Part shown: piece by piece, positions 4,045 to 56,008 of the stretch
Position numbering within the stretch: position 1 is the first letter of the stretch
Layout of the letters: each line of letters begins with the position of its first letter
Program-made: the position numbers and the translations under genes
NCBI GenBank assembly: GCA_024234875.1
Contig: JACKNM010000016.1
Span: 1-64,000 of the forward strand
Direction of reading: 5' to 3'
DNA from: Ectothiorhodospiraceae bacterium
GTDB taxonomy: Bacteria > Pseudomonadota > Gammaproteobacteria > HK1
DNA: 64,000 bases
The notes under the pieces: model-generated
What the model saw: the letters and a program-made list of their open reading frames with translations, nothing else
Told to the model about the DNA's origin: nothing
Database searches by the model: none

Positions 4045-6951
<2,907 letters not shown>

Positions 6952-7176
6952 CCAGGCGACCTGCTCGGTCCGACGTCGCGCGCTGCGGCGCGCGGCACGC
7001 CACGGTGGAGTCGGCGTGACCGCTCGACTCCACGCGACACTCGCGCCCGCGCTACCGGACGGCGCGTGGCACGAAATCTGCTTGATACGGTCAGGCCGAC
7101 CGCGCGACGCGCTCCGGGTGTGCAACGCCCGACCACCGTCGTCGTCGGCCGGCGTCGAGCACTGGAGGCACGTCTG

Positions 7177-8352
7177 ATGGTGAGCGAGACCCTGGCCATC
7201 GTCCTCGCCGGCGACCGCGGCGAGGGCCTGGCGCCGTTGACGAATCGCCGCGCCAAGGCGGCCGTCCCGTTCGGCGGCGAGTACCGCCTCATCGACTTCC
7301 CGCTGACCAACTGCCTGCGCTCGGGGTTGCGACACGTGCTGGTGACGACGGAGAACAAGTCGCATCCGCTGCTGCGTCACTTGCGCGACGGTTGGAGCAT
7401 CTTCAACCCGGCGCTCGGAGAGTACGTGATGCCGGTGCCGGCGGAGTCGACCGGTGACGGCGCGGGTCGGCACGGGGCGACCGAGGCACTGCGGCAGTGC
7501 CGCGACATGGTCGCGCGCAGTGACGCGCGCACCGTGCTGGTGCTGCCGGGGCATCACGTCTACCGGATGGACTACGCGGCACTGGTCGAGTACCACGACG
7601 AGCACGGGTTCGACCTCACCATCGGTTGCCTGGAGGCCTCGCGCCATCGTCTGGACGGTTTCCAGACGGTGGTGGTCGGCGACGATGGGCGGGTGACCAC
7701 GTTGTCGCCGCCGGACTCGGCGCCGGCGGGTCGCGAGCTGCTCTCGATGCGGGTCTACGCCTTCGCGCGCGAGACCTTGCTCGACGCCCTGGCGAGCGCG
7801 ACCGGCGGTGACCTGGATCTGGAGCTCGTCCCGGGCATCGTCGGCGCCCACCGGGTGGGCGCGTACCGTTTCGGCGGCCGCGCGGGCCGGGTGTCACAGG
7901 ACCGGTTCTTCAGCCCTGTCGACACCGTCGACGAGTACTTCGCCGCCAACATGGCACTGCTCGAGCCGGTGCCGCCGCTCGATCTGTACCAGGACTCGTG
8001 GACCATCTGGAGCTCGACCGGCAAGCATCCCCCGGCGCGCACGGTGTCGAGCGCGTCCGGCAACGAGGGCATCTTCGTCAACTCCATCGTCTCCAACGGC
8101 ACCGTGATCACCGGCGGCGTGGTGAGCCGTAGCGTGCTCTGCCCGCAGGTCCGGGTGCAGGACTCGGCCTCGGTGGAGGAGTCGATCCTGTTCGACGGCG
8201 TGGTGGTCGGCGAAGGGGCGCAGCTGCGGCGCTGCATCGTCGACAAGCAGGTCGTGATCGAGCGCGGCGACCGGATCGGTTTCGACGCCCGCGAGGATGC
8301 GCGTCGCTTCCACGTCACCGACACCGGGATCGTGGTGGTGCCGGCGGCCTGA
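7177..8352 (+). CDS. glgC: glucose-1-phosphate adenylyltransferase
   Basis: The tracked ORF is 7066..8352. The conserved GlgC N-terminus (LAIVLAGDRGEGLAPLTNRRAKAAVPFGGEYRLIDFPLTNCLRSG) starts at the ATG at 7177. Confidence 0.8.
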   Translation: MVSETLAIVLAGDRGEGLAPLTNRRAKAAVPFGGEYRLIDFPLTNCLRSGLRHVLVTTENKSHPLLRHLRDGWSIFNPALGEYVMPVPAESTGDGAGRHGATEALRQCRDMVARSDARTVLVLPGHHVYRMDYAALVEYHDEHGFDLTIGCLEASRHRLDGFQTVVVGDDGRVTTLSPPDSAPAGRELLSMRVYAFARETLLDALASATGGDLDLELVPGIVGAHRVGAYRFGGRAGRVSQDRFFSPVDTVDEYFAANMALLEPVPPLDLYQDSWTIWSSTGKHPPARTVSSASGNEGIFVNSIVSNGTVITGGVVSRSVLCPQVRVQDSASVEESILFDGVVVGEGAQLRRCIVDKQVVIERGDRIGFDAREDARRFHVTDTGIVVVPAA

Positions 8353-48967: not shown

Positions 48968-51929
<2,962 letters not shown>

Positions 51930-51996
51930 TTCGCCTCCGCCGAGGCGGCGGCGGGCCGTCGGCGAGCCCGCCGCTCGCCGTGCCCTGCTCGAGTGC

Positions 51997-52635
51997 ATGC
52001 GACGGATGGACGCCCGGGGCCTGAACCGGGGAACCTCCGGCAATGCGAGCGTTCGGCTCGGTGACGAGGTGCTGATCACCCCGAGTGGCGTCGGCCTCGA
52101 TGCGCTGGACGCCGGGTCGATGGTGCGCATGTCGATCGACGGCGTGCCGCGGGACGCCGGCGCCGTGCCCTCGAGCGAGTGGCCGTTGCACACCGCGGTG
52201 CTGCGCGCGCGCGCCGACGCGGTGGCCGTCGTCCACGCTCACCCCCCCTATGCCACCGCGCTCGCCTGTGCCCGACGCGGCATCGCGCCGCTGCACTACA
52301 TGGTGGCCGTCGCCGGCGGTGCCGACGTGCGTTGCGCGCCGTACGCCACCTTCGGCAGCGACGCGCTCGGCGAGCACACCGTCAGCGCCCTCGAGGGCCG
52401 ACAGGCCTGCCTGCTCGCGAACCACGGACTGGTGGCCATCGGACCGAGTCTCGACCGCGCACTGTGGGTCGCGGAGGAGGTCGAGTTCCTGGCCCGGCTG
52501 CAGCTTCTCGCCAGCGCCGCCGGGGGCGCGGTGCTGCTCACCGAGGCCGAGATCGCCGATGCCGCCGAGCGCTTCCGAACCTACGGCCCGCGTCGGGGCG
52601 GCCCGCCTCGGGGTCGGACCAACTCATCTATCTGA
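51997..52635 (+). CDS. class II aldolase/adducin-family protein (FucA-like)
   Basis: It has the GTSGNASVRL motif and HAHPPYATA metal-ligand histidines. The region upstream of the ATG at 51997 is in frame (…EPAARRALLEC) and aligns with the conserved N-terminal helix, but it has no start codon. The last ~15 codons are encoded by the repeat element at 52591 onwards. Confidence 0.5.
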   Translation: MRRMDARGLNRGTSGNASVRLGDEVLITPSGVGLDALDAGSMVRMSIDGVPRDAGAVPSSEWPLHTAVLRARADAVAVVHAHPPYATALACARRGIAPLHYMVAVAGGADVRCAPYATFGSDALGEHTVSALEGRQACLLANHGLVAIGPSLDRALWVAEEVEFLARLQLLASAAGGAVLLTEAEIADAAERFRTYGPRRGGPPRGRTNSSI

Positions 52636-53010
52636 TTCGGAAAAGATTTCCGCGACTACTGGCCATCTCGGCGTCTGGACCGCGCACCGCGAGCTGGGGT
52701 GCCGCCGACCGCGAGCACCTCGACCCGCGGGGTCGCGGTAATCGAGTGGCCGCGTCGGCGCGTCGGGGTCGGACCAAGTCATCTATCGGATTCCAAAAGA
52801 AAATTTCCCCGACCACCGGTCGTCTCGGTGCCCGGCCCGCGCACGGCGAGCTGAGGTGCCGCCGAGACCGTGTGCACCTCGACCCGCGGGGTCGCGGGGA
52901 TCGACTGGTCCGCCCCGTTCGTGGTCGGACAACGGCCGACCAGGTTGGTCCGGCCCAGACCTGAGGGCCAGAAGATAGGAAAATCAAAGGCTTGAGTTGG
53001 TCCGACCCCG
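52591..53010. repeat. intergenic repeat array: two direct ~150-bp copies (52591-52738, 52753-52897) plus an inverted terminal fragment (52975-53010); MITE-like
   Basis: The copies start with CGTCGGGGTCGGACCAA(C/G)TCATCTATC and end with GCACCTCGACCCGCGGGGTCGCGG. Each has an AT-rich core (AAAAGATTTCC and CAAAAGAAAATTTCCCC). GAGTTGGTCCGACCCCG at 52993-53009 is the reverse complement of the repeat start. Confidence 0.5.
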
Positions 53011-53027
53011 GTCGTGCCAGTCGTGGC

Positions 53028-54128
53028 TCAGTGCAGCGGCGCTGACTTGAGCAAGGCCTGACGGTCGACCGTCTCCACGCGGGCGGTGACCGCGTCGCCG
53101 TCTCGCAGCACGGTGATCGGGATTCGTACGCCGGCGGGGCCCTGGCGCCAGATCAGTCGAAACAGGTCGGCGAGGCTCTGGACCGGCACGCCGTCGACCT
53201 CGAGCACGACGTCACCGAGCTTGATGCCGCCGCGGTCGGCCGGACAGCCGGAGTAGACGCCGGCGACGATCAGGCGATCCTCGTCGTCGTGGACGAGCCA
53301 CCCCATCCAGGGGCGAGGCGGGCTCTGGCGGCGCCCATAGAGGCGGAGATCGTCGAGGATGGGCTCCAGGAGGTCGATCGGCACGATCATGTTCGCGCCG
53401 GTACCCTGGCCGTCGGCGCCGACCTGCTGCACCAGGAGCGAGCCGATGCCGAGCAGCTCGCCCTCGGCGCCGATGAGGGCGGCACCGCCCCAATTCGGAT
53501 GGGCGGGTGAGGTGAACACCGCCGAATCCAGCACGTACTCCCAGTAGCCCGCGAACTCGCGCTTCGCGGTGACCCGCGCCTCGACCGCGTGCTCGAGCCC
53601 GCCGTGGCCGGCGACCACCACCCGGCTGCCGGTGAGCAGCGACGCGCAGCGCCCGCGGGGGAGGGGAGGCACATCCAGCCGGCCGAGCGCCTGGACCAGC
53701 CCGAACCCGCTTTCCTGGTCGTAACCGACGACGTGCCCCGGGAGCCCGTGGCCTCGATGGTCGACCACCCACACGCTCTGCGCCTCGGTGACCAGGTAGC
53801 CGATGGTGAGGATCAGCCCCTGCTCGTCGATCACCACACCGTGTCCGGCGCGCTCGGTTCCCAGCACACCGGCGGTCAGCGCGTCCTCCGGGATCTGCGT
53901 GCGGAGCGCGACGATCGAGTTGAGCGTGCTCTCGAGGTCGAACTTGTACTGGCTTGGATCGGGCTGCACGGTCTGGCTCGTCTCCGACTGGCTCGTTTCC
54001 GGGGTGCTCGGGTCGGAAGGCTCGGTCCGGGGCCGAGCACGGGGGCGCCACCGCCCTTGCCGACCTGGTCCCGAGGCCGCGCGTGCCGGTGGTCGGCTCC
54101 CCGCGCGGCCAGCCGCGTCGAGGGCCAC
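53028..54128 (-). CDS. trypsin-fold (HtrA/S1C-like) + PDZ domain protein, probably catalytically inactive
   Basis: 366 aa. It has the HtrA-like layout and a C-terminal PDZ domain (GIKLGDVVLEVDGVPVQSLADLF). By eye, the catalytic-triad positions read TIGYLV (His to Tyr), GFGLVQ (Asp to Gly) and PNWGGAAL (Ser to Trp). There is no signal peptide; the N-terminus is disordered and Pro/Ser/Thr-rich. Confidence 0.5.
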   Translation of the reverse strand: MALDAAGRAGSRPPARAASGPGRQGRWRPRARPRTEPSDPSTPETSQSETSQTVQPDPSQYKFDLESTLNSIVALRTQIPEDALTAGVLGTERAGHGVVIDEQGLILTIGYLVTEAQSVWVVDHRGHGLPGHVVGYDQESGFGLVQALGRLDVPPLPRGRCASLLTGSRVVVAGHGGLEHAVEARVTAKREFAGYWEYVLDSAVFTSPAHPNWGGAALIGAEGELLGIGSLLVQQVGADGQGTGANMIVPIDLLEPILDDLRLYGRRQSPPRPWMGWLVHDDEDRLIVAGVYSGCPADRGGIKLGDVVLEVDGVPVQSLADLFRLIWRQGPAGVRIPITVLRDGDAVTARVETVDRQALLKSAPLH

Positions 54129-54299: not shown

Positions 54300-55268
54300 G
54301 TGGCGAGAGAGGCGCTCGGCAGGGCGGCGGAGGACGGGCCGGTACCGAACGGGACCCGTCGCACGGTCGACGACAAGGAGTGCGTCTACTACGACGGCTA
54401 CTGGATCCGGCACTACGCACCGCCACGCGAGACGCTGGCGGCGAAGAAGCGGCTGATCGAGCACCTCTCGCGGCGGCTCTTCCATCACACCGAAGTCGGC
54501 ATCAATACGCCCGGCGAGAATCTCGAGCGGGCCCGCAAGGCCTACGAGCGGGAGCAGGACCCGGCGCGCAAGCGGGTGGCCGGTGCGATGCTCGCGGGTG
54601 CGCTTTTCAACCGCGCGACCGACATCTTCACCACCCTCGTCGACCTGCAGCAGAAGGGGGTCGAGATCAGCCCGAGCAACGAGCTGATGCGCCAGTGCGA
54701 GCAGTACTTCCAGGAGGCGCTCGCGCTCGGCAAGTCGGTCAAGCACTACAGCGGGCACGAAGGTATCGACGAGCTCTGGGGCGAGCCGTTGAAGGCGTTC
54801 GTCATGCCGCTGAAGGACTTCTACGAGAGTCGATACATCAAGATCGCGCAGACCATGCGCGACATCGACCGTGTCGCCGGACGTCTGCGTGCCCTGCTCG
54901 CATCCGAGCGCGGGTTCGCCGGAATCGACCCGCTGATTCGCGAGTTCGCCGATGCCGCGAAGCTCGAGAGCGAGACGATGCGCAGCGACCCGGTGATCTT
55001 CGTGGTGTGGCCGCGCTTCGTGGCCGCCGGCGAGGCCCTGGTGGCTTTCCGACCGTCCCTCGCACCCGGCGCCCCGGAGCACCTGCGCCGGCGCGCCGAG
55101 GGGATGCTGGCGCTGCTGCGCGACGGCAAGGACTTGCTGACCTACCTGTCGGGGGCGCGGGTGCCGATGCCGAAGAGCACGCGCGAGTACCTGGAGCGGT
55201 GCGACGCACAGGCGCGCGCGGTCTATCCTCAGGCGGCGAGCCTGCCGCCGGCGGATCCCGGCGGGTGA
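54300..55268 (+). CDS. conserved hypothetical protein
   Basis: 322 aa. It is non-repetitive and lower in GC than its neighbours. Its stop overlaps the GTG start of the next gene (GTGA). Confidence 0.45.
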   Translation: MAREALGRAAEDGPVPNGTRRTVDDKECVYYDGYWIRHYAPPRETLAAKKRLIEHLSRRLFHHTEVGINTPGENLERARKAYEREQDPARKRVAGAMLAGALFNRATDIFTTLVDLQQKGVEISPSNELMRQCEQYFQEALALGKSVKHYSGHEGIDELWGEPLKAFVMPLKDFYESRYIKIAQTMRDIDRVAGRLRALLASERGFAGIDPLIREFADAAKLESETMRSDPVIFVVWPRFVAAGEALVAFRPSLAPGAPEHLRRRAEGMLALLRDGKDLLTYLSGARVPMPKSTREYLERCDAQARAVYPQAASLPPADPGG

Positions 55269-56008
55269 GCGCCACCGCCGCGGATGTCGCGGCGGCGGAG
55301 CGAGCCGTCCGCGTCGACCTCGCGGCGTGTTACCGGCTGGTCGACCTGAACCGCCTCGGAGACCTCACCGCGACCCACATCTCGGCCCGCGTCCCGGGTG
55401 AGGACGCATTCCTGCTCAATCCCCACGGCCTGTTGTTCGACGAGATCACTGCCTCGTCGCTGGTGAAGGTCGGTTTCGACGGCGAGGTGCGTGGTGCGGG
55501 CCCACGGGCCTTCAACCCGGCCGGCTTCAACATCCACAGCGCGGTGCTCGCCGCGCGCCCGGACGTCGCCTGCGTCATCCACACCCACACCCGGGCGGGA
55601 ATGGCGGTGGCGGCGATGCGCTGCGGTCTGCTGCCGATCAGCCAGCACGCCATGCGGTTCCATCGCCGCATCGGCGTGCACGAGTACGAGGGGATGGTGC
55701 TGGACCGCGACGAGCGTGCGCGCCTCGCCGCGGACCTCGGACCGCATCACGCCATGCTGCTGCGCAATCACGGGCTGCTGGTCGCGGGGCGCTCGGTGGC
55801 CGAGGCGTTCCGGCTGATGCACATGCTCGAGCGAGCCTGCCAGGTGCAGGTCGACGCGATGGCGGCGGGCGCCGATCTCGCGCTTCCGTCGGAGTCGGTC
55901 TGCGAGACGACCGCGCGTCAGTACGAGAGCTTCGGGACGATGGGCGGCCGCGACTGGCGGGCCCAACTGCGCCGCCTCGACCGTCTCGATCCGTCCTACC
56001 GGGACTGA
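55265..56008 (+). CDS. class II aldolase/adducin-domain protein
   Basis: The GTG at 55265 lies within the 54380..56008 frame. The metal-ligand histidine cluster is CVIHTHTRAGMAVAA, with HGLLVAGRSVAEA following. Confidence 0.6.
   Translation: MSATAADVAAAERAVRVDLAACYRLVDLNRLGDLTATHISARVPGEDAFLLNPHGLLFDEITASSLVKVGFDGEVRGAGPRAFNPAGFNIHSAVLAARPDVACVIHTHTRAGMAVAAMRCGLLPISQHAMRFHRRIGVHEYEGMVLDRDERARLAADLGPHHAMLLRNHGLLVAGRSVAEAFRLMHMLERACQVQVDAMAAGADLALPSESVCETTARQYESFGTMGGRDWRAQLRRLDRLDPSYRD

What the first reader, a model, noticed from the sequence alone, without database searches (positions are those of the whole stretch)
52591..53010. MITE-like tandem element with AT-rich cores inserted at the 3' end of a class II aldolase gene
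Two direct copies of a ~150-bp unit (52591-52738 and 52753-52897) share conserved ends (CGTCGGGGTCGGACCAAsTCATCTATC … GCACCTCGACCCGCGGGGTCGCGG). Their AT-rich centres are very unusual for this genome.

An inverted copy of the first ~18 nt (GAGTTGGTCCGACCCCG, 52993-53009) closes the region, giving terminal inverted-repeat geometry.

The first copy supplies the last ~15 codons of the aldolase ORF (…GPRRGGPPRGRTNSSI*), so it landed on the native stop and terminator.

The element could be a non-autonomous transposable element (MITE/REP-like), or it could encode small RNAs. The AT-rich core is flanked by GC-rich hairpin-forming arms.
Basis: seen in the sequence. Interest (0 to 1): 0.55.

Follow-up and report, generated by a model that had tools for sequence, protein, structure and literature searches.

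The report
Gene-less transposon remnant cluster between genes
The repeat is real and is a cluster of small, gene-less mobile-element copies whose ends match those of a known class of tyrosine-transposase elements ("TIRtrons"); it is an ordinary new member of a known kind, with one odd duplication signature at its ends.

Summary
Window 52604-52913 is a 157-bp unit repeated 2.0 times at 82% identity. An inverted copy of its first ~28 nt closes the region at 53009. The AT-rich cores are the three lowest-GC 40-mers of the 64-kb window.

The shared end, GGGGTCGGACCAA-N-TCA-N7-GATT, is the terminal inverted repeat (TIR) of a widespread element family. An exact-pattern scan found 39 loci in many phyla. 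In 4 of 4 independent loci, a ~263-aa Y1/HUH transposase gene (Pfam Y1_Tnp, close to REP-associated tyrosine transposases) lies between two such TIRs in a 941-986 bp element. Gene-less TIR pairs of 67-409 bp occur in other genomes, without target-site duplications.

This matches the published "TIRtron/TIRYT" class, whose TIR consensus is GGGGWSAS (Di Nocera 2013; RAYT Group 1, subclass 2.1).

The window most likely holds one ~245-bp TIR element (52765-53009) between convergent aldolase and protease genes. A local duplication of flank plus ~140 nt of element produced "copy 1". Duplication and element together supply the last ~10-12 aldolase codons and the stop.

Nothing supports an sRNA reading, and copy number in the host genome could not be tested.

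Side finding: 20 of 76 element ends carry tandem duplications spanning the flank/element boundary, against ~0.5% in controls.

The parts
51997..52635 (+). Class II aldolase ORF. Its last ~10-12 codons and its stop codon come from the boundary duplication and the element.
   Evidence: Pfam Aldolase_II E=5e-54. Homologues end at YGQQxx, or YGPRRGDS in Thioalkalivibrio.
52584..52613 (+). 15-nt x2 tandem duplication (CGGCCCGC[G/C]TCGGGG) spanning the flank/element boundary. It adds 5 codons (GPPRG) to the aldolase.
   Evidence: TRF period 15, 2.0 copies, 93%; boundary-duplication test.
52604..52913 (+). 157-bp unit repeated 2.0 times. The unit comprises ~25 nt of aldolase 3' flank plus the first ~140 nt of the TIR element.
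52610..52637 (+). Left-type TIR, copy 1 (GGGGTCGGACCAACTCATCTATCTGATT). It contains the aldolase stop codon TGA at 52633-52635.
52751..52766 (+). 8-nt x2 tandem duplication (CGCGTCGG CGCGTCGG) spanning the boundary of copy 2.
52765..53009 (.). Complete 245-bp gene-less TIR element: left TIR 52765-52792, right TIR 52982-53009.
   Evidence: As ssDNA the ends pair, dG -61.8 kcal/mol, z -3.35. The right TIR is 93% identical over 30 nt to the TIR in L001/L027, E=3e-7.
52715..52738 (+). GC-rich 24-mer with the hairpin CGACCCGCGGGGTCG, identical in both units. The second copy is at 52874-52897.
52921..52957 (.). Degenerate inverted mini-pair of TIR starts (GtGGTCGGAC-AAC ... TTGGTCCGgCCCa).
   Evidence: read from the sequence.
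52982..53009 (-). Right TIR (reverse complement GGGGTCGGACCAACTCAAGCCTTTGATT). It keeps the small TCAA/TTGA subterminal hairpin.
53008..53025 (+). 9-nt x2 tandem duplication (CCGGTCGTG CCAGTCGTG, 1 mismatch) spanning the right boundary.
   Evidence: Read from the sequence. It falls just below the strict threshold.
53028..54128 (-). Convergent trypsin-like/PDZ protease ORF. Its stop codon lies 18 nt from the element end.

Best explanation
The region is a cluster of 'TIR repeats'. These are non-autonomous, gene-less derivatives of a TIRtron, a ~0.95-1 kb element in which a RAYT-like Y1/HUH tyrosine transposase gene (TIRYT; RAYT Group 1, TnpA-Y1 subclass 2.1) sits between long inverted repeats that begin GGGGTCGGACCAA.

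One ~245-bp TIR element landed between the convergent aldolase and protease genes, on or next to the aldolase stop codon. Local tandem duplications that span the flank/element boundary then followed: 15 nt, 8 nt and 9 nt, plus one of 157 nt that created 'copy 1'.

**Shown.**
- The TIR is homologous to TIRtron ends.
- The TIR is associated with Y1 genes elsewhere.
- Gene-less TIR pairs exist elsewhere.
- There are no target-site duplications.
- The aldolase tail is extended.

**Inferred.**
- A TIRYT encoded elsewhere in the genome mobilised the element in trans.
- The mechanism is single-strand cleavage and rejoining, as in IS200/IS605 and TnpA-REP.
- The order of events is as described above.
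- The copy is probably now inert, because the left TIR hairpins are degenerate and the two units differ by 18%.
For: **The TIR motif is widespread.**
- The exact pattern GGGGTCGGACCAANTCAN{5,9}GATT hits 39 stretches in species-representative genomes. My estimate of the chance expectation is about 1.4.
- Hits come from Gammaproteobacteria, Desulfobacterota, Acidobacteriota, Aminicenantes and other groups, and several genomes hold multiple copies.
- Sequence similarity extends beyond the pattern.

**The TIR flanks a Y1 transposase gene.**
- Four proteins homologous to the L001 Y1 protein were looked up (P0143, P0161, P0124, P0128). All 7 contigs, representing 4 independent loci, show the 13-mer with 0 mismatches 120-165 nt from the ATG.
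- Its inverted copy lies 29-74 nt after the stop. The elements are 941-986 bp.
- TIR similarity runs for ~110 nt and overlaps the 3' end of the gene.

**The protein is RAYT-like.**
- Pfam Y1_Tnp E=1.5e-9. NCBIfam REP_Tyr_transpos E=5.8e-21, 74.9 bits against a cut-off of 80.
- A profile of 12 homologues finds E. coli TnpA-REP (4ER8) as best solved structure, E=0.028, with the HUH and Y motifs aligned.

**Gene-less copies exist elsewhere.**
- TIR pairs of 67-409 bp occur in other genomes.
- These include a 187-bp family seen three times in one locus and again in a locus from another MAG.

**No target-site duplication.** Flanks share only 0-3 nt in 21 elements, as expected for HUH/Y1 elements.

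**Literature.**
- RAYT-like genes flanked by long TIRs are called TIRtrons/TIRYT. Many of their TIRs share GGGGWSAS, and TIR repeats occur singly, as dimers or in clusters (PMC3733652).
- These correspond to subclass 2.1 and RAYT Group 1, the taxonomically widest group (PMC6006769, PMC5581495).

**Local duplication.** Units 1 and 2 share the flank GGCC(C)GCGTCGG upstream of the TIR.
Against: - No Y1 gene lies in the 64-kb window (tblastn), and there is no other TIR copy in it.
- The internal sequence of the unit has no match elsewhere. A subfamily-specific scan of metagenome contigs gave only one chance hit.
- The window's TIR fits GGGGWSAS at 7 of 8 positions. Sibling variants GGGGTCAG fit 8 of 8.
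- The TIR-Y1 association was shown in Desulfobacterota-type genomes and metagenomes, not in a close relative of this high-GC host.
- According to the papers read, no TIRYT has been shown experimentally to cut or move its TIRs. The dissemination mechanism of REP/RAYT systems was still unresolved in 2021.
Confidence: 0.85

Rival explanations
1. The two units are tandem small-RNA genes, or one structured cis-acting RNA, for example a 3'-end stabiliser or bidirectional terminator for the convergent genes. Any mobile origin would be secondary.
For: - The region has GC-rich hairpins, and the minus strand of unit 2 folds better than shuffles (z -2.97).
- REP and MITE repeats downstream of genes are often transcribed and can affect mRNA stability (PMC3733652).
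- This reading is not mutually exclusive with the best explanation.
Against: - No Rfam family matches at gathering threshold, and relaxed hits have E>7.
- There is no sigma-70-like promoter and no intrinsic-terminator-like site.
- Plus-strand fold z-scores are -1.06 and -1.83.
- The part conserved across genomes is the TIR, not the GC-rich body.
Confidence: 0.07
2. It is a Tn3-family-derived miniature element (TIME) mobilised by a DDE transposase, because the inverted repeats start with GGGG.
For: The GGGG start of the TIR is typical of Tn3-family ends. This rests on my recollection and was not tested against a database.
Against: - Target-site duplication is 0-3 nt with no consistent length; a fixed 5-bp one would be expected.
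- Positions 35-38 of the end read AGAT, not TAAG.
- The gene between the TIRs is a Y1/HUH protein, not a DDE Tn3 transposase.
- The large ORFs translated next to TIRs look like ordinary cellular genes plus one reverse transcriptase, not transposases; they were not scanned against Pfam.
- No plasmid matches were found.
Confidence: 0.02
3. It is a purely local tandem duplication of ordinary intergenic DNA with no mobile-element origin, and the inverted 18-mer is a coincidence.
For: Only one locus exists in the 64 kb, and the unit body is unique.
Against: - The 28-nt end recurs in 39 loci of unrelated genomes and flanks Y1 transposase genes.
- The right TIR is 93% identical over 30 nt to a Desulfobulbus copy.
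- The GC content of the cores is the lowest in the window.
Confidence: 0.03
4. It is a classical REP/REPIN of a Group 2/3 RAYT, meaning a GTAG-tagged 20-40 nt palindrome doublet.
For: The associated transposase is RAYT-like. A small inverted doublet lies at 52921-52957.
Against: - There is no GTAG tag, and the ends begin GGGG.
- The TIRs are long, ~28 to ~110 nt, rather than short palindromes.
- The literature separates TIRYT/TIRtrons from REPtrons.
Confidence: 0.03

Closest known systems
TIR repeats of TIRtrons / TIRYT (Di Nocera et al. 2013, PMC3733652); RAYT Group 1 (Bertels et al. 2017); TnpA-Y1 subclass 2.1 (Quentin et al. 2018)
   Same: - Inverted repeats start with GGGG(W)(S)..
- The same repeats flank a RAYT-like Y1 gene that carries a C-terminal extension (~263 aa).
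- Gene-less copies occur singly, as dimers or in clusters.
- The family has a broad taxonomic spread.
   Different: - Position 7 of the motif is G here; the consensus has A.
- The host genome's TIRYT gene and its copy number are unknown.
- The 13-mer is identical across phyla.
- The papers read do not mention tandem duplications that span the element boundary.
REPIN/RAYT systems (Bertels & Rainey 2011, PMC3116915) and REP/BIME clusters
   Same: They are non-autonomous inverted doublets thought to be mobilised in trans by a single Y1/HUH protein. They lie in extragenic space, often between convergent genes, and often form clusters.
   Different: This element has no GTAG tag. It is much longer (245 bp with a non-palindromic body), and the TIRs are long and overlap the transposase gene in the autonomous form.
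IS200/IS605 family and its miniature derivatives (PATEs)
   Same: They share the Y1/HUH catalytic domain (Pfam PF01797), lack target-site duplications, and have small subterminal hairpins.
   Different: As I recall, IS200/IS605 ends are not inverted repeats. NCBIfam scores the protein far better as a REP-associated transposase (74.9 bits) than as IS200 (23.3 bits).
Classical bacterial MITEs (for example Correia/NEMIS, RUP, ERIC)
   Same: They are small, have TIRs, have no coding capacity, lie in intergenic regions, and can extend or alter neighbouring ORFs.
   Different: Those derive from DDE insertion sequences and have fixed target-site duplications. None is present here.

Membership tests
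TIRtron-derived TIR repeats (TIRYT / RAYT Group 1) | Inverted repeats whose outer end fits GGGGWSAS | tested here: met
   The window ends read GGGGTCGG, 7 of 8 positions, with G for A at position 7. Sibling ends in L004 and L012 read GGGGTCAG, 8 of 8. Consensus from PMC3733652.
TIRtron-derived TIR repeats (TIRYT / RAYT Group 1) | The same TIR flanks a RAYT-like Y1/HUH gene in inverted orientation | tested here: met
   4 of 4 independent loci (7 contigs) have the 13-mer on both sides with 0 mismatches. This was shown in other genomes only; no Y1 gene lies in this window.
TIRtron-derived TIR repeats (TIRYT / RAYT Group 1) | The protein has the HUH motif and the class-2 Y motif (Y---NP) plus a C-terminal extension | tested here: inconclusive
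   In the 5 sequences read, HVH is present and the Y motif reads YIDLNM, so NP is replaced by NM; across 12 aligned homologues the H..H, Y, N and M columns are invariant. The proteins are ~263 aa against 165 aa for E. coli TnpA-REP. NCBIfam REP_Tyr_transpos scores 74.9 bits, just under the cut-off of 80.
TIRtron-derived TIR repeats (TIRYT / RAYT Group 1) | Repeats are moderately abundant in the same genome | not testable with these tools
   Only 64 kb of the host is available. The sole other public copy is a 1374-nt Logan contig of the same locus.
Classical MITE (DDE-derived) | Fixed-length target-site duplication flanking the TIRs | tested here: not met
   0-3 nt shared in 21 elements and 0 in the window.
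Classical MITE (DDE-derived) | Short (<~400 bp), TIR-bounded, non-coding | tested here: met
   245 bp with TIRs of 18-29 nt. The two units differ by 2-nt indels, so no reading frame is shared.
REP/REPIN (RAYT Groups 2/3) | 20-40 nt palindromic unit tagged by GTAG at its 5' end | tested here: not met
   The ends begin GGGGTC and there is no GTAG tag.
Tn3-derived miniature elements (TIMEs) | ~38-bp IR running GGGG...TAAG, a 5-bp TSD, and a cognate DDE Tn3 transposase | tested here: not met
   Positions 35-38 read AGAT, there is no TSD, and the cognate gene is Y1/HUH.
Small RNA gene | Own promoter and terminator, or a match to a described RNA family | tested here: not met
   No promoter-like or terminator-like sites and no Rfam match. 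Expression itself cannot be tested here.

The most novel reading that the evidence does not exclude
The tandem duplications that span the flank/element boundary may be a footprint of the TIRYT reaction itself. One example would be cleavage inside the terminal GGGG followed by rejoining to a different 3' end at a replication fork. The footprint is seen at 20 of 76 ends across genomes, and here as duplications of 8, 9, 15 and 157 nt. If this is right, it would show how Y1-associated repeats grow into dimers and clusters, a step that the REP/RAYT literature still calls unresolved.
Probability: 0.2. Interest if true: 0.6.

Novelty: new member of a known kind. Interest (0 to 1): 0.3.

Why it matters
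For this genome the finding is mostly annotation. The 390-bp spacer between two convergent genes is a mobile-element remnant, and it has rewritten the last ~10 codons and the stop of a class II aldolase.

More generally, a 13-nt transposon end is kept identical from Gammaproteobacteria to Desulfobacterota and Acidobacteriota. That argues for a tightly constrained recognition site and for horizontal spread of the TIRYT group.

The boundary-spanning duplications could be a usable clue to how Y1-associated repeats multiply. By the papers read, that mechanism was still unresolved in 2021.

Tried and rejected
- **Rfam.** The window, the region at relaxed threshold, and 19 related loci gave nothing meaningful.
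- **Tn3/IS1071-like long IR.** I first suspected this because of the GGGG start and a ...TAAG near 105 nt in some loci. I dropped it after translating neighbouring ORFs (ABC permease, GGDEF protein, caspase-like protein, a reverse transcriptase, no Tn3 transposase), finding no TSD and finding the Y1 gene between the TIRs.
- **A hairpin with apparent covariation ~70-110 nt inside the end.** I first read it as a structured RNA. It is part of the long TIR, and on the right side it overlaps the conserved C-terminal codons (...ADFxPEN...) of the transposase.
- **blastn of a 113-nt end against PLSDB plasmids.** Only two chance hits.
- **Full-text search for the literal sequence GGGGTCGGACC.** Only irrelevant primers and constructs.
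- **Metagenome scan for the window-specific end GGTCGGACCAASTCATCTATC.** One chance hit inside a coding region.
- **Viral contigs.** One hit in 2.9 million contigs, so there is no phage link.
- **Empty-site comparison.** Impossible, because the nearest aldolase relative is only 61% identical.
- **Single-sequence PDB search with P0143.** No hit; a profile was needed.
- **Simple replication slippage as the cause of the boundary duplications.** The microhomology it would need upstream of the first copy is present in only some cases (by inspection), so this stays open.

Full report

Yes.
- Tandem Repeats Finder reports one array at 52604-52913: period 157, 2.0 copies, 82% matches, score 423. The repeat finder splits the same pair into three in-register blocks of 82-88% identity.
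- The 24-mer GCACCTCGACCCGCGGGGTCGCGG is identical in both units and occurs nowhere else in the window. The chance expectation is 0.00.
- The inverted closing copy is present: 18 nt at 94% complementarity and 29 nt at 83%. The 16-mer CGGGGTCGGACCAAST occurs exactly three times in 64 kb, at 52609(+), 52764(+) and 53010(-).
- The AT-rich cores are the three lowest-GC 40-nt windows of the whole window: 0.40, 0.40 and 0.45 against a mean of 0.715.
- A third, degenerate left-type start and a degenerate right-type end form a mini inverted pair at 52921-52957. The layout is therefore three left-type ends followed by two right-type ends.

**2. What the shared end is**

All three good ends begin GGGGTCGGACCAA-N-TCA-N7-GATT.
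- An exact-pattern scan of one genome per species found 39 stretches of DNA. My estimate for random sequence is about 1.4 (596 Gb x 2 strands x 5 gap lengths / 4^21).
- The hits come from Gammaproteobacteria MAGs (including Woeseiaceae), Desulfobacterota, Acidobacteriota, Aminicenantes, a Bacteroidota MAG and even an Asgard MAG contig.
- Several genomes hold multiple copies. OZ244981.1 gave five loci and MAG PLM2.Bin7 gave four.
- Many hits sit at contig ends, as repeats do.
- A position matrix of 77 non-redundant ends shows conservation through about nt 28. It includes a small TCAA/TTGA hairpin.
- Mapping the 13-mer on both strands showed many inverted pairs 67-409 bp apart with no gene inside. 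One 187-bp family occurs three times in one locus (L010) and once in L024, from another MAG; a further 187-bp element in L023 shares only the TIRs.
- These pairs share only 0-3 nt between their two flanks, so there is no target-site duplication.

**3. The autonomous partner**

- Next to the motif in L001 (Desulfobulbus alkaliphilus) lies a 205-aa ORF. It matches Pfam Y1_Tnp (E=1.5e-9) and NCBIfam REP-associated tyrosine transposase (E=5.8e-21, 74.9 bits, cut-off 80), and it matches IS200 far less well at 23.3 bits.
- N-terminal fragments of the same gene follow the motif in L032 and L035.
They are typically ~263 aa.
- I fetched the contigs for four of them: P0143, P0161, P0124 and P0128.
  - In all 7 contigs, representing 4 independent loci, the outer end of the 13-mer (0 mismatches) lies 120-165 nt upstream of the ATG.
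  - The outer end of its inverted copy (0 mismatches) lies 29-74 nt after the stop. The units are 941-986 bp.
- Left and right ends remain alignable for ~110 nt, and the right repeat overlaps the last codons of the gene.
- A profile of 12 of these proteins finds E. coli TnpA-REP (PDB 4ER8) as its best solved relative (E=0.028). The HUH and catalytic-tyrosine motifs are aligned: HVHLL/HMHCI and YIDLNMVRAG/YIYINPVKHG.

**4. Comparison with the literature**

- Di Nocera et al. 2013 (PMC3733652) described RAYT-like genes flanked by long terminal inverted repeats rather than by REPs.
  - They named the units TIRtrons and the proteins TIRYTs.
  - They noted that many TIRs share GGGGWSAS.
  - They noted that TIR repeats form moderately abundant families, found singly, as dimers or in clusters.
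- Quentin et al. 2018 (PMC6006769) place most TIRYTs in TnpA-Y1 subclass 2.1. These are long proteins with a C-terminal extension and the widest taxonomic spread. The subclass equals RAYT Group 1 of Bertels et al. 2017.
- The ends found here read GGGGTCGG, 7 of 8 consensus positions. Sibling copies read GGGGTCAG, 8 of 8.
- The window therefore holds a new member of a described kind.
- None of the papers I read reports experimental proof that a TIRYT moves its TIRs. The dissemination mechanism of REP/RAYT systems was still called unresolved in 2021.

**5. Reconstruction of this locus**

- The aldolase (Pfam Aldolase_II, E=5e-54) and a trypsin-like/PDZ protease converge on the region. The protease stop codon is 18 nt from the right TIR.
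- Sixteen aldolase homologues end 2-6 residues after a conserved YG. The Thioalkalivibrio protein ends YGPRRGDS.
- The window protein continues YGPRRG-GPPRG-RTNSSI*.
  - GPPRG comes from a 15-nt tandem duplication, CGGCCCGC[G/C]TCGGGG x2 at 52584-52613.
  - The codons from about GGT CGG ACC onward, plus the TGA, lie in the TIR.
- Units 1 and 2 share not only the element sequence but also the preceding flank GGCC(C)GCGTCGG.
  - 'Copy 1' is therefore best explained as a 157-bp local duplication of flank plus ~140 nt of element.
  - The intact element is then 52765-53009 (245 bp). As single-stranded DNA its ends pair (z -3.35).
- A 1374-nt Logan contig from SRR12358675 carries the same junction and breaks off inside the repeat.
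- No closer relative than 61% identity exists in the protein database, so no empty site could be examined.

**6. Rival readings**

- **Small RNAs.** There is no Rfam match, no promoter-like or terminator-like site, and fold z-scores on the plus strand are only -1.06 and -1.83. A passive role as a transcribed 3' structure cannot be excluded.
- **Tn3-derived element.** This is contradicted by the absence of a target-site duplication, the absence of the TAAG inner end, and the Y1 partner gene.
- **Coding sequence.** The long overlapping ORFs in this 72%-GC region are not conserved between the two units, which differ by 2-nt indels.

**7. An unexplained signature**

- Directly outside many ends, a short stretch of flank is repeated in tandem together with the first 2-4 nt of the element (occasionally 12-21 nt). 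An example is CCCTTTATTGG CCCTTTATT|GG GGTCGG in L023.
- A fixed test found this at 20 of 76 non-redundant ends. It occurred at 62 of 14100 random positions and at 13 of 2041 other GGGG sites in the same DNA.
- All three good ends in the window show it: 15 nt, 8 nt, and a 9-nt case with one mismatch.
- The 157-bp duplication here, a 126-bp duplication of a TIRtron right end in L045, and 27-53-nt periodic partial ends in L002, L010, L015 and L034 look like larger versions of the same event.
- Simple slippage would need microhomology upstream of the first copy. That is present only in some cases.
- Other candidates are polymerase stalling at the foot of the TIR hairpin, or aberrant rejoining by the transposase. 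I could not discriminate between them.

**8. Verdict**

This is a cluster of TIRtron-type TIR repeats of the RAYT Group 1/TIRYT class, probably an inert remnant, which rewrote the 3' end of the aldolase gene.
- It is a new member of a known kind. Interest is modest, and the boundary-duplication signature is the only feature that might repay further work.

Noticed in passing
Ends of TIR elements in L002, L005, L006, L008, L010, L015, L017, L023, L024, L034, L037, L039, L041; window 52584-52613, 52751-52766, 53008-53025: Tandem duplications span the flank/element boundary, covering flank plus the first 2-21 nt of the element. They occur at 20 of 76 ends, against ~0.4-0.6% at control positions. 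The mechanism is unknown.
   Followed up: partly
window 51907-51999: The aldolase ORF has no ATG/GTG/TTG upstream of 51997. Yet the in-frame translation upstream (...AARRALLEC) still aligns with the N-terminal helix of homologues, which are ~20-26 residues longer. Possible causes are a non-canonical start (CTG at 51985), a lost start codon or a sequencing error.
   Followed up: partly
window 55280-56005 (+): A second class II aldolase paralogue (Pfam Aldolase_II, E=6e-49) lies 2.6 kb downstream. Between the two lie the protease gene and a 322-aa ORF with no Pfam match at 54300-55265.
   Followed up: no
L045 3790-3947; L001 (reverse-complement orientation, 6088-7907): Autonomous copies are also rearranged. 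L045 has a 126-bp tandem duplication of the right end that includes the last codons of the transposase gene. L001 has two ends in direct orientation 983 bp apart and a Y1 gene cut short at 205 aa.
   Followed up: partly
L005, L011, L026, L028, L034 (Gammaproteobacteria MAG OZ244981.1): At least four near-identical 256-bp TIR elements occur in one chromosome. In the one locus examined (L011) the element overlaps a short ORF with an RHS-type core end (DPxGL...), read by eye and not checked against a family library.
   Followed up: no
L037 (Promethearchaeota MAG contig, 5263-5326); L021 (Cytophagia MAG contig start): The same bacterial TIR appears at the ends of contigs binned as an Asgard archaeon and as a Bacteroidota MAG. 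This could be binning contamination or real horizontal spread.
   Followed up: no
L002 about 4070-5320: A reverse-transcriptase-like ORF with a YADD motif lies ~1 kb from a triple partial TIR array. The family assignment is by eye, and no link to the TIR was established.
   Followed up: no
all ends, position -1 relative to GGGG: The base just outside the element is a pyrimidine in 63 of 77 ends (C 33, T 30, A 11, G 3). It may be part of the cleavage or target context. E. coli TnpA-REP, as I recall, cuts at CT.
   Followed up: no
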